The translations under genes were made by a program, and so were the position numbers. DNA of 64,000 nucleotides from Leucoraja ocellata (Eukaryota): assembly GCA_036785375.1 (NCBI GenBank), contig JAWMAR010000061.1, positions 1,488,001 to 1,552,000 on the forward strand. Direction: 5' to 3'. This document shows, piece after piece, positions 1,573-63,597 of this stretch (position 1 is the first letter of the stretch; the number at the start of each line of letters is the position of its first letter). The notes beneath the pieces were generated by a model, which did no database searches, was not told the origin of the DNA, and was given only the letters and a program-made list of their open reading frames with translations.

Positions 1573-2123
1573 CTCCCCTCTCTTGTAAGCATGGATGCAG
1601 TGAGCAGGTACACTATCACAAATGACCAAGACAGACCTATCTGGTCAGTGTGGGAGGCGAATGGGCCGAGATCGCCTGGCCTCAGTCAGGGTTGCATTGG
1701 TGACCTGGAGTTCATTTGTTGAGTACGTCCATGTCCTTTGCTATCTGTTTCCTGCAGCCCCAGCATGCAGTGACCTCGGTTGCTGCGTTGGGATGATGTC
1801 AAATGATTCACTTGTGTTTGTCTTGGGGTTTGGCTCCACTCCAAGGGCAGCCGGGTGCCATCGAGTCCCTGCTCTGAACGGTCATCATGTCTCTACTGGA
1901 GATCTCCAAGGTTAATGAGTCACTGATGCATCATTGTTATGCGTGCCTAGGTACAGTGACATACTTTGTTTTGCATTGTTCTTAAGTGATAGGAGCAGAA
2001 TTAGGCCATTCGGCCCATCAAGTCTACTCCGCCATTCAATCAAGGCTGATCTATCTCTCCCTCCTAACCCCATTCTCCTGCCTTCTCCCCATAACCCTTG
2101 ACACCCATACTAATCAAGAATCT

Positions 2124-2315
2124 GGAGAACTCAGCGGGTGCAGCAGCATCTATGGAGCGAAGGAAATAGGCAACGTTTCGGGCCGAAACCCTTCAGGTTT
2201 CGGCCCGAAACGTTGCCTATTTCCTTCACTCCATAGATGCTGCTGCACCCGCTGAGTTTCTCCAGCTTTTTTGTGTAACCTTCGATTCTCCAGCATCTGC
2301 AGTTCCCTCTTAAAC
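2124..2315 (+). mobile_element. Fold-back Penelope-terminus mini-element with 15-bp TSD
   Basis: Inverted arms centred at ~2195. ACTAATCAAGAATCT at 2109-2123 and 2316-2330. Confidence 0.85.
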
Positions 2316-2369
2316 ACTAATCAAGAATCTACCTGTCTCTGTCTTAAAAATACCCATTGACTTGGCCAC

Positions 2370-2676
2370 AGCACGGTGGCCCAGCGGTAGAGTTGCTGCC
2401 TCACAGCGCTTGCAACGCCGGTGACCTGGGTTCAATCCCGACTACAGGTGCTGTCTGTACGGAGTTTGTACGTTTTCCCCGTGACCTGCGTGGGTTTTGT
2501 CCGAGATCTTCCGTTTCCTCCTACTTTGCAAAGACGTACTGGTTTGTTGGTAAATTGGCTTGGTATAAATGTAAATTGTCCTGAGTGTGTTAATGTGCAG
2601 AGATCGCTGGTCGGCGTGGACTCGGTGGGCCAAAGGGCCTGTTTCTGCGCTGTACCTCTTGTAAAACTAAAAACTA
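2370..2676 (+). mobile_element. tRNA-derived SINE (HE1/V-SINE-like)
   Basis: A-box-like TGGCCCAGCGG, B-box GGTTCAATCC, central GGAGTTTGTACGTT..CCCGTG...TGGGTTTT domain, CR1-like tail and (TAAAAC)n end. Confidence 0.8.
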
Positions 2677-2764
2677 AAGCCTTCTGTGGCAATGAATTCC
2701 ACAGACTCACCAAGCTTTGACTGTAGAAATTCCTCCTCATCTCCTTCCTAAAGGAACGTCCTTG

Positions 2765-3141
2765 TACGCTCTGGAGTTTTCGAAGGATGAGAGGCATCTC
2801 ATTGAAACATATAAGATTGTTAAGGGCTAGAGGCAGGAAACATGTTCCCGATGTTGGGGAGTCCAGAACCAGGGGCCACAGTTTAAGAATAAGGTGTAAG
2901 CCATTTAGAACGGAGACGAGGAAACACTGTGGAATTCTCTGCCTCAGAGAGTGGTGGAGGCCGGTTCTCTGGATGCTTTCAAGAGAGAGCTAGATAGGGC
3001 TCTTTAAGATAGCAGAATCAGGAAATATGGGGAGAAGGCAGGAATGGGGTACTGATTGGGGATGATCAGCCATGATCACATTGAATGGCGGTGCTGGCTC
3101 GAAGGGCCGAATGGCCTACTCCTGCACCTATTGTCTATTGT
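2765..3141 (+). mobile_element. CR1-clade LINE 3' end (second subfamily, TTGTCTA tail)
   Basis: ESRTRGHSLRI..KPFRTE motif and the shared 3' UTR. Confidence 0.8.
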
Positions 3142-3660
3142 CCTTTAATTCTGAGGCTGTGCCCTTTGGTCCTGGACTCCCACTGGTGGAAACATCCTCT
3201 CCACATCCACTCTATCCAGGCCTCACCCAGGCAGCACACAAGAGTCGCCAGGTTTCCAGGAACCAACAAAGTTACAAAAGTTCCCTTTTGCGACGGAAAT
3301 CACAAACGTGAAGTTTCAAAGACCCGTTTGGGTGGCCCCTTCATTCTCGGGCGGGCCCCCGACGTTCTTGCGACGGCTTCCTGCCGGGTCCCCACTTGAT
3401 CTCGGCGGCCCCTCTCCCTCCCTCATCTCCCCCTTCATCAGTCGCTCCGTCAATGCGCCAGAACCTCATCAGACGCACACAACTATCCCACCACTGGCAG
3501 GACTTTGCCCTGTACCTTGCAGGAACCTGTGGCTCTGCCCCACACCAGGCGTGGTGGTCAAGATCATCGGGGGGGGGGGGGGGGGGGGCATGGCCAAAAT
3601 GAACGGCCGCTGTCTTCCACCACAGATTAGAGGATTCCACAACTAGAGGGCACAGGCTTA

Positions 3661-60145: not shown

Positions 60146-60550
60146 CGGGAAGTTAATATTACTTTGATTTAATGATAGTTCCTTGATCAGTGCAAACATT
60201 TCTTTGGTCTTCGACTGAGTTACCAGCCGTGATGCTCTAGTCCTGGTTTGAAGTCAATTGAGTTCTATTCAATTCAATCGAAGAAGGTTTCTGACCCAAA
60301 ACGGCCTATCCATGTTTCCAATGATGCTGCGTGGCCCTCTGTAACTTCAGCAATTTGTGTTCTACGCAAGATTCCAGCATCTGCAGTTGCTTGTGTCTTC
60401 AATTGTATTGTGCCAAGTAGATTTTTCATTCCTGGATATTTTGTTTATTTAATTAACTAACTGGTGAATGAGGCAAATTTGAAGGTAAACTTGAAAAAAA
60501 CATTGAGGTAAAATGGCATTTTTAATTTCTATATTGACTAACAGATTAGT

Positions 60551-60578
60551 CTGACGAAGGGTCTCGGCCCGAAACGTC
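60551..60578 (+). ncRNA. Minimal hammerhead ribozyme core (Penelope-type)
   Basis: CUGACGA-A-GGGU(CUCG)GCCC-GAAA-C-GUC. All core nucleotides are present, with palindromic ACGU in place of stem III. Flanks AUUAGU/GCCAAU give a partial stem I. Confidence 0.65.
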
Positions 60579-61033
60579 GCCAATTTCCTTCGCTCCATAG
60601 ATGCTGCCTCACCCGCTGAGTTTCTCCAGCATTTTTGTCTACCTTCGATTTTCCAGCATCTGCAGTTCCTTCTTAAACAGGTTGTTGTTGAAAGCTCCGA
60701 ATCCTCAGGGCATTGAGCACTGTCACATCACCTCAAATTAACGGTAATATAGAGAAACAAGAAACTGCAGATGCTGGTGTAAAAATCAACTCACAAAGGG
60801 TCTCTGCTTGGTCTTGCTGATGTAGGGGCGACCACATAGAGAACGCTGGAGGCAGTGGATGAGGTTAGAAGAGGTGGATGTGAACCTCTGTCTCACCTGG
60901 AAATAGATGCTACCTGAGCTGCTTAGTCACTCCAGCATTCCCACAATATTCGGCATTTCCTAATCATTATTCAGGCTGATCTATTTTGTCAATTTCAGTG
61001 CAAAGATTTGCTCCTATTTCAATTCCTTTATTG

Positions 61034-61498
61034 GTTTAGTTCAGAGATACAGCACAGAAACAGGCCCTTCGGCCCACCGAGTCCACGCCAACCTGCGATC
61101 CCCGCACATTAATGCCCCTGTCCCACTTAGGAAACCACAACGGAAACCTCTGGAAACTCTGCGCCCCACCCAAGGTTTCCATGCGGTTCCCGGAGGTTGC
61201 AGGTGGTTGCCGGAGGTTGCAGGTAGTGGAAGCTGGTAGGGAGACTGACATATTAACAAAACATTGACATATTAACACTACCCTGCACACACTAGGGACA
61301 ATTTTACATTCATACTCAGCTAATTAACCTACAAGCTATTACGTCTTTGAAGTGTAGGAGGAAACCGAAGATCTTGGAGAAAATTCATGCAGGTCACGGG
61401 GAGAACGTACAAACACCGTACAGACAAGCACCCATAGTCAGAACCCGGGTCTCTGGCACGAAGGCAGTAGCTCCAGCGATACACCACCTTGCCGCCCT
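61034..61498 (-). mobile_element. tRNA-derived SINE with nested partial MITE (~61112-61250)
   Basis: SINE body interrupted by TGCCCCTGTCCCACTTAGG... MITE sequence. Confidence 0.72.
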
Positions 61499-62589
61499 CA
61501 AGTCTGACAACACCTTAAACACTGTTTTGTGCAAATCAGTGGAAATGTTTATTTAAACGTTGAATTCTGCAGTACAGTTCCACAAGCCTAATCCCCACTG
61601 TTGAATCTGACTTACAAAGAAAGACTTGTCAGCAAGGCAAGAGCTTTTTACTTGTATATGAGGAGATATCAGGCACAAGTGATATGAATGAAATGAAGAA
61701 GATATTCTTGAACCATACAGTAGTTGGGATGCTCCAACATGGCACATTGGGGATACAAATGTCTGGTTAAAACGGCTCAATCTAACCAGACGCAGATGTT
61801 GAAACAGAGATTTAGAAATTGGATGAACTAAAGTGGGTCAAACTGTCTTCATTTTTCACCATCTTGTACAAATTGTTGCCAGATTATGGAGAATTATGCA
61901 CCATTCTTTAGCCAGAGGGTGGTGAATCCATATAATCCATTGCCACAGACTGATGTGAAGGCCTAGTCAATGAGTATTTTTAAAGCAGAGATTAATACGT
62001 TCTTAATTAATAAGGGCATCAAAGGTTACGGGGAGAAGATTTGGGTAGAATAGATCAGTCATGATCAAATGGTGGAGCAGACTTGATGGGCCAAATGGCC
62101 TAATTCTGCTCCTATGGCTTAGCAAGAGAAGATTTTGTGGCTCCCTAAATTCAAGATATTGTCGACTTGACTGATTTTATTTTGTACGTTTACATTTCTA
62201 GTTCCTTTACACCACAAATTCAGTTATCGTTTTATGAATCTAAACTTAATTACAAGTGGTCTAATAACATTTGTTGAAATCGGTTTTACCCATGAACTGG
62301 CCCAGATTTGCTTAAATGCACCAAATCAGACAAGGTCACGTTTTGTGTGTTCTGCTCCAAATTGTCTTGTGAGTGGGAAGCATATTCCTCAAGAAGTTTA
62401 AGAAAGTCTGAAGAAGGGTTTCTGCCCGAAATATTGCCAATATTTTATTTATTTTAATCTACTTTACCCATAATTTAAGTTTTGCTGAAAGTTCAAAGTT
62501 GGTGGTGTGCACTTTAAAATAGCTTCTCCAATCAGCAGAGAAACCTTTCACGCGTATTATAAAGTTGAAGCATAAAAGTCTCTTGCAGG

Positions 62590-62617
62590 CTGAAGAAGGG
62601 TTTCGGCCCGAAACGTT
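62590..62617 (+). ncRNA. Minimal hammerhead ribozyme core (Penelope-type)
   Basis: CUGAAGA-A-GGGU(UUCG)GCCC-GAAA-C-GUU, in an insertion flanked by a GTCTCTTGCAGGCT duplication. Confidence 0.58.
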
Positions 62618-63597
62618 GCCTATTTCCTTCACTCCATAGATGCTGCCACATCCGCTGAGTTTCTCCAGCAATTTTGTCTACCGTCTCTTGCAGGCTTTGC
62701 AGGATGTTGTATTTAATATTATTTAGTAATAATTTACAGCCATTACCAAGTGCTTTACTTTTGGGAGAAGCATATGGTCCAAGGTAAACTAGTGTTGGTT
62801 GATAGTGGGAGTTGTTCCAGTCTATTGCCCATGGCTGGTAGTCAGTGCGAATCCCAAATGAATGGAATGACTCACTTTCATTCACAGGCCCGCTTGCTTC
62901 CCTGCCCCCTCATTTTCCCTGAAGGCAGAGTCAAGCTGGTATATGTGCCACCGGTGTTGATTCTACATGCAGGGAAAAGTTTTGATCAGCCAAGTTGGCA
63001 CAAGCCTAACGGTACATATTGCCTGCGGTCATCGCGCATATGAAAGCCAACATTGCATCTAGTAATCCTGCAAAATGGTCACGCAGGTTTGAGGGCTCTT
63101 TGGTTTACAGTTTGCCTTGTGTTCTTGACCAATGGTTGGGAAAAAAACCTGGGTGTGGTATCAGATGTAGACCTTGATGGAAATTGATAGTCAGCTGCGG
63201 TTCCCCTTCATGGTGGAATAACTCATCCACACTTGCTACGGTGTAGACAGATCATTGGAACAGGGCAAATCGGTATGTGTTTGATGCTGATCTCACCAGG
63301 AAAGATGAGGGACAATTAATATCAATGCCATAAAAATGCACCTTTGCCATTTGATGACCTGGCCTTCTATTAGTTACATGCCGAGGCAGTTCATTTATTA
63401 TTTGTAAAATACACAACATACAGAAACTGAAGCAGATTGAATGAAGACACGTCAAGTTTGTGGTGTTGGTTATTCGTATGGTTATCTTGACTGGTATAAA
63501 ATAGTTCTGCCTTGCGTAATTCTCTGTGGCATCAAGGCTACGGCTGTTTTCTTTAATATTAAATTTATAATATTTGAATATTATGTATGTCCTGCAG

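What the first reader, a model, noticed from the sequence alone, without database searches (positions are those of the whole stretch)
2109..62696. Short fold-back mobile units made only of the ribozyme-bearing Penelope terminus, with long TSDs
Seen: 90-215 bp insertions made of the PLE terminal sequence alone, often an inverted partial copy joined head-to-head to a direct copy, each flanked by its own direct repeat. TSD pairs: 2109-2123/2316-2330 (15 bp), 5639-5652/5866-5879 (14), 30830-30841/31024-31035 (12), 33510-33521/33619-33630 (12), 35610-35624/35808-35822 (15), 42735-42748/42877-42890 (14), 43601-43616/43711-43726 (16), 53686-53699/53837-53850 (14, one mismatch), 55319-55328/55460-55469 (10), 62578-62591/62683-62696 (14). 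Inversion points and 5' ends cluster within or just before the hammerhead core, and the centres differ between copies. Family-B fold-backs also occur at ~15680-15865, 19350-19500, 42190-42335, 42960-43125, 51000-51150, 54232-54375 and 58160-58300. Inference: each fold-back is generated anew at insertion (snap-back or template switch at the ribozyme hairpin), or a retrozyme-like non-autonomous RNA is mobilised by the PLE enzyme. Fold-back RNA would sequester its own ribozyme and form long hairpin dsRNA.
Basis: partly seen in the sequence, partly recalled or inferred. Interest (0 to 1): 0.75.

Follow-up and report, generated by a model that had tools for sequence, protein, structure and literature searches.

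The report
Twin-primed fold-back stubs of Penelope
These short hairpin-shaped insertions are the smallest copies of a very common Penelope-like jumping gene in a cartilaginous-fish-type genome, a known layout, and their two arms almost always end at two different fixed points, which likely means the enzyme starts copying from both cut DNA strands at once.

Summary
All 10 target-site duplications (TSDs) are real; 6 of the 10 inserts are head-to-head fold-backs and 4 are single arms. All 7 family-B fold-backs are present.

They are not a separate mobile unit. They are the terminus (minimal hammerhead plus optional ~36-nt tail) of a Neptune-type RT + GIY-YIG Penelope-like element (PLE). Coding copies over 2 kb carry the same inverted arm and 14-15-bp TSD.

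In 1.2 Mb sampled: 425 terminus insertions, 89 head-to-head, 1 tail-to-tail. Outer ends fall at two sites, S1 (~93) and S2 (~129). 67 of 76 classifiable pairs join one S1 arm to one S2 arm (50% expected). Often neither arm is a subset of the other, which argues against simple snap-back. 5' ends peak at -2/-1, not at the predicted ribozyme cut, and no head-to-tail array of complete units was seen, so the retrozyme reading is unsupported.

Best model (inferred): both nicked target strands prime cDNA, one from each RT start site, and the cDNAs are end-joined. The architecture is published; I did not find the S1+S2 rule quantified or read this way. The scan noted the 5' edge earlier in two other genomes.

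The parts
2109..2330 (.). Family-A fold-back: 15-bp TSD, antisense arm ending at S1 (2124-2194, element positions 6 to ~84), 1-nt filler, sense arm ending at S2 with tail (2196-2315, positions 10-128)
   Evidence: 67 paralogous empty host-repeat sites
5639..5879 (.). Family-A fold-back: 14-bp TSD, antisense S1 arm (positions 5 to ~93), blunt joint, sense S2 arm (9-129)
   Evidence: perfect RNA hairpin predicted
30830..31035 (.). Family-A fold-back joined at the internal palindrome spanning positions 11-25; antisense S1 arm, sense S2 arm; 12-bp TSD (15 with one mismatch)
33510..33630 (-). Single-arm stub, positions -2 to 93 (S1), 12-bp TSD
35610..35822 (.). Family-A fold-back at the 11-25 palindrome; antisense S2 arm (35625-35742), sense S1 arm (35728-35807); 15-bp TSD
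42735..42890 (.). Fold-back with short antisense S1 arm (positions ~70-93) and sense S2 arm (21-127); 14-bp TSD
43601..43726 (-). Single-arm stub, positions ~2-95 (S1), internally deleted; 16-bp TSD
   Evidence: 3 paralogous empty sites
53686..53850 (.). Antisense S2 arm (positions 4-128) joined to a 12-nt sense S1 arm (83-94); 14-bp TSD with one mismatch
55319..55469 (+). Single-arm stub, positions -1 to ~126 (S2, tail); 10-bp TSD
   Evidence: 9 paralogous empty sites
62578..62696 (+). Single-arm stub, positions ~1-3 to 93 (S1); 14-bp TSD
56249..57202 (+). 5'-truncated coding copy of the parent PLE: 3' part of the ORF (to 57015; GIY-YIG only E 0.092 for this fragment), pyrimidine-rich UTR, hammerhead motif from 57106, end at S1; 11-bp TSD
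   Evidence: relatives with 763-aa RT+GIY-YIG frame
57106..57135 (+). Minimal type-I hammerhead motif of the parent copy (position 1 = 57106); predicted cut after position 28
   Evidence: definition from PMC4209133
15659..15866 (.). Family-B fold-back
18260..18410 (.).
19341..19534 (.). Family-B fold-back, S1 arm plus S2 arm
42186..42370 (.). Family-B fold-back, S1 arm (-1 to 95) plus S2 arm (38-125)
42954..43155 (.). Family-B fold-back, S1 arm (-1 to 93) plus S2 arm (13-122)
50956..51149 (.). Family-B fold-back, S2 arm plus shorter sense arm
54230..54412 (.). Family-B fold-back, S1 arm plus S2 arm
58123..58294 (.). Family-B fold-back, S2 arm plus shorter sense arm

Best explanation
The fold-backs are the shortest, terminus-only insertion products of an abundant Neptune-type Penelope-like retrotransposon, likely made by twin target-primed reverse transcription in which the two nicked target strands each prime a cDNA, one at site S1 and the other at site S2 of the element RNA. 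Steps: (1) shown: TSDs of 10-20 bp (mostly 13-16), AT-richer than background, flank the inserts, and outer ends fall at S1 (~93) or S2 (~129); (2) inferred from the anole PLE in vitro: S1 and S2 are the two internal RT start sites and the enzyme nicks and extends both strands, probably as a dimer; (3) inferred: one start site is used per strand, probably on one RNA; (4) inferred: unit transcripts begin at about -2/-1, so priming on the 5' copy of the terminus runs out of template after ~95 or ~130 nt, which is why most copies are stubs; (5) inferred: the two cDNA 3' ends are joined by end-joining, helped by microhomology at two short internal palindromes; if one cDNA aborts, a single-arm stub results. 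The ribozyme is a passenger in this process and the stubs are likely dead ends.
For: Parent element: the window's ORF remnant gave 189,830 first-look candidates in the genome (147 scored); a 763-aa frame has RVT_1 and GIY-YIG hits. Outer ends bimodal at ~91-96 and ~127-130. Head-to-head 89 versus tail-to-tail 1 among 425 insertions in 1.1986 Mb. One S1 plus one S2 arm in 67 of 76 classifiable pairs (A 26 of 27, B 41 of 49; 25 of 101 pairs unclassifiable) while singles split 42:38 and 90:100 (p 4e-12 against 0.5); 24 of 24 TSD-flanked family-A fold-backs pair a tailed with an untailed arm. Non-nested arms: S1 arm reaches at least 8 nt further 5' in 33 of 67 pairs, S2 arm in 11, within 7 nt in 23; 10 of 24 at base resolution. 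Seven pairs have a tail-only S2 arm starting at 82-103. Same layout in 3 independent long coding insertions among the 20 loci (L022/23, L033/34, L039; TSD 14-15 bp). Same centre in 3 haplotypes, twice; arms share haplotype, decay independently. 5' edge at -1/-2 in 30 of 102 short copies, in RNA reads of other runs, and 6 independent near-full-length copies also start between -8 and +3 while none starts between -9 and -195 (29 loci shown). In vitro precedent: PMC11167929.
Against: In vitro the anole enzyme showed no difference in start site between strands; independent choice would give 50% mixed pairs, so the rule needs an extra assumption (one RNA shared, or an asymmetric dimer). Most S2 arms run through the S1 region, which on a single RNA requires strand displacement (inferred; untested). 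Tail-only arms are not enriched exactly at 93-97 (7 arms in 90-99 against 8 in 80-84 and 9 in 100-104). 7 of 24 junctions sit at palindromes and 7 of 24 are nested, both compatible with snap-back. Later deletion of palindrome centres could mimic non-nested arms. 8 of 49 classifiable family-B pairs are S1/S1 or S2/S2. What sets the 5' edge is not shown: transcription start, RT block at a splice-acceptor-like site and helix-I edge all coincide. No RNA 5'-end data.
Confidence: 0.65

Rival explanations
1. Snap-back or self-priming: one cDNA (or an antisense RNA) folds back at an internal palindrome and copies itself; the hairpin is then cut in staggered fashion at S1 and S2 by the endonuclease, and centres are later eroded by deletion.
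For: 7 of 24 junctions lie at two internal palindromes and 7 more are nested. Self-priming at palindromic junctions is the published reading (PMC3846280) and the tail was ascribed to EN-mediated resolution (PMC8557442). A staggered cut would give the S1+S2 rule automatically.
Against: 10 of 24 base-resolved pairs and 33 of 67 coarse pairs have an S1 arm reaching further 5' than the S2 arm; L022 has a ~2.1-kb S1 arm against a 274-bp S2 arm inside an intact 14-bp TSD; tail-only S2 arms exist; S1 and S2 were mapped as RT starts in the anole PLE.
Confidence: 0.2
2. A dedicated non-autonomous RNA (SINE-like or retrozyme-like) made from the stubs or fold-backs themselves is mobilised in trans by the PLE protein.
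For: Sharp 5' edge at -2/-1; most copies are terminus-only (41 of 221 anchored copies extend into the upstream UTR); pLTR-derived retrozymes are described in vertebrates (bioRxiv 10.64898/2026.07.22.740005).
Against: 5' ends avoid the predicted cut (16 of 535); no head-to-tail arrays of complete units; stub haplotypes match coding subfamilies; the same centre recurs in different haplotypes; near-full-length copies share the 5' edge; the anole enzyme needs RNA beyond its start sites, which stubs lack; helix I is only 2 bp.
Confidence: 0.1
3. Class II MITE with terminal inverted repeats.
For: Short, non-coding, inverted-repeat form, very high copy number.
Against: TSD length varies 10-20 bp; ends are asymmetric (S1/S2); centres vary; sequence is the 3' end of an RT gene.
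Confidence: 0.01
4. Assembly or library artefact (read fold-back chimeras) or post-insertion duplication.
For: Perfect-looking palindromes are a known artefact type (own knowledge).
Against: Arms differ by 5.5% at non-CpG sites with 1 shared against 62 unshared rare variants; TSDs with empty paralogues; opposite-strand joints occur in independent RNA runs.
Confidence: 0.02

Closest known systems
Canonical EN+ Penelope-like element insertions with inverted 5'-truncated pLTR and optional 30-40-bp tail (Arkhipova et al. 2013, PMC3846280; Craig et al. 2021, PMC8557442)
   Same: Head-to-head inverted copy at the 5' end, tail at only one end, 8-10-bp TSD, palindrome or overlap at the junction.
   Different: Here both arms are usually cut down to the terminus alone, at an extrapolated ~250,000 copies. 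The one-tail rule is counted (67 of 76) and arms are often non-nested, which the published self-priming idea does not explain.
PAc (Poseidon PLE of the green anole) in vitro (Frangieh et al. 2024, PMC11167929)
   Same: Two internal RT start sites that bracket the tail; both target strands cut and extended; predicted dimer; uncut RNA is the main template; AT-rich targets.
   Different: Different clade (this one is Neptune-type); ATG lies ~35 nt after the tail rather than inside the ribozyme; that paper's main text does not discuss inverted copies.
Dispersed minimal hammerheads of metazoan PLEs (Cervera and De la Pena 2014, PMC4209133)
   Same: Same motif type; mostly single copies from truncated PLEs; pairs on opposite strands 100-700 bp apart were noted in Schistosoma.
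   Different: Helix I here is 2 bp, below the 4-5 bp of their families and like the D. virilis variant; they did not map TSDs or arm ends in the parts I read.
L1 twin priming (abstract start of PMC2837659 seen; original model recalled)
   Same: Second target nick primes a second cDNA, giving an inversion inside a TSD.
   Different: In L1 the second primer lands at variable internal sites and arms do not overlap (recalled); here it uses a fixed site 36 nt away and arms mostly duplicate the same sequence.
Non-LTR retrozymes (Li, Clavereau, Pollet, bioRxiv 10.64898/2026.07.22.740005)
   Same: Non-coding, pLTR-derived, type-I hammerhead.
   Different: Defined by tandem units each with a ribozyme; these inserts are single or inverted and do not start at the cut site.

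Membership tests
EN+ Penelope-like element (C-terminal EN) | Single ORF with RT followed by C-terminal GIY-YIG endonuclease | tested here: met
   L021 763 aa: RVT_1 E 4.5e-7, GIY-YIG E 0.0011 (below the curated cut-off); L022 similar; homologues carry the same domains
EN+ Penelope-like element (C-terminal EN) | [quoted passage not shown] | tested here: met
   CxxC between the LIY and YIG motifs and two downstream histidines read from the translation; definition from PMC8557442
EN+ Penelope-like element (C-terminal EN) | pLTR from partial tandem, optional inverted 5'-truncated copy, 30-40-bp tail | tested here: met
   Partial tandem in L188 and ~10 independent loci; inverted arm plus tail in L022, L033, L039; tail ~36 nt
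EN+ Penelope-like element (C-terminal EN) | Variable-length TSD | tested here: met
   10-20 bp in 44 TSD-flanked fold-backs
Neptune clade | Extra CX2-5CxxC zinc-finger-like linker between RT and EN | tested here: met
   C-x4-C-x2-C just upstream of the EN domain; definition; shared with Nematis
Neptune clade | RT phylogeny with reference Neptune elements | not tested
   No named reference PLE proteins were in hand
Minimal type-I hammerhead of PLEs | Catalytic core boxes, extra nucleotide between 9 and 10.1, G10.1-C11.1 pair, palindromic 15-16 region | tested here: met
   (196 anchored copies; the anchor pattern biases these counts towards the motif); definition
Minimal type-I hammerhead of PLEs | Helix I of 4-6 bp | tested here: not met
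   Only -1:30 and 0:29 pair; -2:31 is A-C in 137 of 196; a 2-bp helix I is described for D. virilis
Minimal type-I hammerhead of PLEs | Self-cleavage | not testable with these tools
   Minimum-energy folds do not form the hammerhead; needs an assay
Non-LTR retrozyme | Head-to-tail tandem units, each with a complete hammerhead | tested here: not met
   Same-strand neighbours in the sample are few and partial; the two L067 arrays repeat positions 21-87, without the core
Non-LTR retrozyme | Unit boundary at the cleavage site; circular RNA | tested here: not met
   16 of 535 arms start at 27-31; circular RNA itself not testable
MITE (class II) | Symmetric terminal inverted repeats, fixed short TSD, uniform length | tested here: not met

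The most novel reading that the evidence does not exclude
The inverted pLTR with a tail on one side, a structure seen across Penelope-like elements and called unexplained in the literature, is the footprint of obligate two-site twin priming: a PLE dimer holds one RNA, primes one target strand at S1 and the other at S2, and re-copies the same template by strand displacement. Because the RNA begins at the ribozyme edge, this has put about a million stubs and about a quarter of a million near-perfect hairpins into this genome (about 4% of sampled DNA).
Probability: 0.45. Interest if true: 0.72.

Novelty: new member of a known kind. Interest (0 to 1): 0.5.

Why it matters
How PLEs form their tandem and inverted repeats is named as an open problem (PMC8557442). 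Here the same terminus occurs at ~355 copies per Mb, so arm ends can be counted. The S1+S2 rule and non-nested arms connect the in vitro result for the anole PLE (two start sites, both strands extended) with the genomic architecture. They give a direct prediction for the existing in vitro system: top and bottom strand products on one target should use different start sites.

The stubs also cover about 4% of the sampled DNA and are easily mis-annotated as MITEs or microRNA hairpins (Rfam gave only sub-threshold microRNA-type matches). Transcribed fold-backs would be a source of ~90-bp double-stranded RNA, which is untested.

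Tried and rejected
Rfam found no hammerhead family and only sub-threshold microRNA-type hairpin matches.

Sequencing runs: no RNA holder listed on record. Four raw RNA runs of organisms coded A and E, not known to be the window's species, were laid. Reads mostly run on into unlike flanks (79-96%), lie on both strands, and show no pile-up of molecule starts or ends. These fragmented poly(A) and single-cell libraries cannot show a start, a cut or a small RNA, so this is no evidence either way.

Splicing at the acceptor-like site at -1/0: no GT..AG joint among the 15 joints shown (17 not shown); no shared upstream exon in short copies; chimeric junctions in L197 and L207 are not at donor sites. 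Not supported, not excluded.

Cap-derived G before the 5' end: 11 of 23 for -2 starts, but several are hidden inverted arms; inconclusive.

Collision of the two cDNAs exactly at S1: not enriched. RT stalling at the poly-C run: ends lie 3-5 nt short of it and family B lacks the run yet has the same edge; disfavoured.

Orthologous empty sites in other species could not be tested (no relatives held); paralogous empty sites were used instead. TSDs were found for only 30 of 330 single-arm copies and 22 of 72 family-B fold-backs with a narrow search, probably from age, missed short arms and longer upstream parts; this was not resolved. No structure prediction or complex job was run.

Full report
OBSERVATION. 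All 10 of 10 TSD pairs are at the stated places, nine exact and one with one mismatch; inserts are 91-213 bp. Shuffled flank pairs gave a TSD in 2 of 300 and 1 of 150 trials. Three inserts lie in host repeats whose paralogues in my sample hold the TSD once (67, 9 and 3 empty sites); one lies in a repeat with a deletion; six had no paralogue. Six inserts are head-to-head fold-backs, two of them with a second arm of only 12-24 nt; four are single arms. All 7 of 7 family-B fold-backs exist.

PARENT ELEMENT. The same terminus follows an ORF remnant at window 56236-57015. That fragment gave 189,830 first-look candidates in the 3.44-Gb genome, 147 scored. A 763-aa frame in L021 has RVT_1 and GIY-YIG matches, the CCHH motif and a C-x4-C-x2-C linker, which PMC8557442 gives for Neptune and Nematis. 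Named homologues include sharks and rays. No RT tree was made, so 'Neptune-type' rests on the linker. Near-full-length copies show the order pLTR, hammerhead, S1, tail, S2, ~35 nt, ATG. Positions below count from the first core nucleotide of the hammerhead (window 57106 = 1).

SAMPLE. I took 120 ten-kb stretches at fixed round positions of large contigs (1,198,600 non-N bases); this is not a strict random sample. It holds 425 terminus insertions covering 4.1% of bases: 308 single hits, 89 simple head-to-head, 1 tail-to-tail, 27 more complex. Scaled up this is about 1.2 million insertions and about 250,000 fold-backs, a rough extrapolation; short arms are missed by BLAST. Only 37 alignments reached the ORF end in sample plus window, and 41 of 221 anchored copies extend into the upstream UTR, so most copies are terminus-only.

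OUTER ENDS. They are bimodal at ~91-96 (S1) and ~127-130 (S2); the interval is the PLE 'tail'. Singles split evenly (A 42 S2:38 S1; B 90:100). Of 101 head-to-head pairs in sample plus window, 76 had both arms classifiable and 67 of these pair S1 with S2 (A 26 of 27; B 41 of 49; p 4e-12 against 0.5). All 24 TSD-flanked family-A fold-backs dissected pair a tailed with an untailed arm, and both arms abut the TSD within 0-8 nt. TSDs were found for 22 of 29 A and 22 of 72 B fold-backs, 10-20 bp, 64% AT against 56% background. Three independent long coding insertions among 20 loci chosen for long frames have the same layout with 14-15-bp TSDs. The short fold-backs are therefore the short end of a continuum.

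JUNCTIONS. Of 24: 7 at two internal palindromes (around -4 to 4 and 11 to 25), 7 with 1-5 nt microhomology, 3 blunt, 7 with 1-13 nt filler. A snap-back copy must be a subset of the arm it copies. In 10 of 24 each arm holds sequence the other lacks; 7 are nested; 7 are uninformative. At coarser resolution the S1 arm reaches at least 8 nt further 5' in 33 of 67 pairs, the S2 arm in 11. Seven pairs have an S2 arm of little more than the tail, but their starts are not enriched exactly at S1. Each palindromic centre recurs in 3 subfamily haplotypes; arms of one insertion share a haplotype (5 of 102 sites differ against 48% between copies) yet differ privately as much as unrelated copies (5.5% against 5.8%; 1 shared against 62 unshared rare variants; 27 pairs). 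So fold-backs formed at insertion, repeatedly, and are neither artefacts nor later duplications. Shared haplotype does not prove one RNA molecule, since subfamilies may have been active at different times.

5' ENDS AND RIBOZYME. Among 102 short copies with an intact core the mode is -1 (20), then -4 (14, partly unrecognised long copies) and -2 (10). Reads from other runs break at -2 and -1. Among 29 near-full-length loci, 6 independent copies start between -8 and +3, about 10 extend 196 nt or more upstream, the rest start inside or after the terminus, and none starts between -9 and -195. Only 16 of 535 arms start within 27-31 around the predicted cut. The motif fits the minimal hammerhead of PMC4209133 except that helix I is 2 bp (counts biased by the anchor), and predicted folds do not form it. 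The edge coincides with an initiator-like motif (consensus recalled), a splice-acceptor-like motif (in D. virilis the intron ends at helix I) and the first base of helix I. I favour a transcript start because family B has different upstream sequence but the same edge and no splice evidence appeared; this is not shown. Two earlier notes of this scan on other genomes report the same edge (seen after my own count; not independent support).

MECHANISM. Shown: TSDs, two fixed outer ends, one of each per fold-back, frequent non-nesting, end-joining-type junctions, continuity with coding copies. From the anole PLE in vitro: two internal RT starts bracket the tail, both strands are cut and extended, a dimer is predicted, ribozyme cleavage is dispensable. 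Inferred: each nicked strand primes one cDNA, one at S1 and one at S2; priming near the RNA's 5' end yields ~95- and ~130-nt cDNAs; their 3' ends are joined; loss of one gives a single arm (0.65). Weak points: that paper saw no strand difference in start site, so exclusivity needs a shared RNA or an asymmetric dimer, and overlap of the arms needs strand displacement or two RNAs. The main rival is self-priming with staggered endonuclease resolution and later erosion of centres (0.2). A self-propagating non-autonomous RNA (0.1), MITE (0.01) and artefact (0.02) fit poorly.

LITERATURE SEEN. PMC3846280: passages and Discussion; describes inverted pLTR, tail on one of the inverted pLTRs, 8-10-bp TSD, and proposes self-priming. 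PMC8557442: passages. PMC11167929: parts 1-2 of 4, covering the main text, plus a term search; supplements not opened and they may bear on genomic end counts. PMC4209133: parts 1-2 of 4; notes opposite-strand hammerhead pairs 100-700 bp apart. bioRxiv 10.64898/2026.07.22.740005: parts 1-3 of 5; supplements closed. PMC2377424: passages. PMC2837659: listing only. The original L1 twin-priming paper and the 2005-2006 PLE reviews are recalled, not seen, and may already hold part of this argument. Ten searches showed no paper that applies twin priming to PLE inverted repeats or counts arm ends; the library lacks most subscription papers and Repbase or Dfam entries were not available.

VERDICT. Real, and a new member of a known kind: minimal inverted-pLTR insertions of a Neptune-type PLE, not a new mobile unit and not a retrozyme. 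The value lies in the S1+S2 rule and non-nested arms, which make the open question of how PLE inverted repeats form directly testable. Interest 0.5.

Noticed in passing
window 14315-14665 (+): First coding exon of a proprotein-convertase-type gene (Pfam S8_pro-domain E 3.8e-8); much of the window is probably its first intron.
   Followed up: partly
L207/L208 and L197/L199, L196, L220: Direct-repeat chimeras: terminus, 0.4-1.2 kb of the element's 5' part, then a second terminus ending at S1. L207 has a 14-bp TSD and its second terminus starts near -2.
   Followed up: partly
L194 and L204 (G000 C451, ~878,000-884,500): Two ends of what seems one multi-kilobase double inversion, again with one outer end at S1 and the other at S2.
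   Followed up: no
L067 391-660 and 1367-1710: Two short tandem arrays of a 66-bp piece of the family-B terminus (positions 21-87), lacking the ribozyme core.
   Followed up: no
element positions ~50-57, 77-83, 103-110 (L188 2806-2979, minus strand): The same 7-mer occurs once before S1 and once before S2 and both copies can pair with one upstream segment; the predicted fold uses the second (z +1.2, not significant). Alternative pairings might set the two start sites.
   Followed up: no
L181, L169, L172, L176: The N-terminal part of the PLE ORF holds a proline-rich minisatellite of variable length, expanded over more than 1 kb in some copies.
   Followed up: no
window 10049-10933 (-): Non-LTR RT remnant with RVT_1 and ALKBH8_N matches, unrelated to the finding.
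   Followed up: partly
window 560-1350 and 9060-9860: A ~0.8-kb segment occurs twice, each with the same family-B terminus copy: local duplication after insertion.
   Followed up: no
window 12252-12889 and 38028-38678: Older family-B coding remnants; at 12252-12348 an inverted terminus lies just upstream of the ORF fragment.
   Followed up: partly
window 56300-57080, runs X21-X23: Reads over the ORF part appear biased to the antisense strand in three runs, if usual library strandedness holds; may reflect intronic orientation bias.
   Followed up: no
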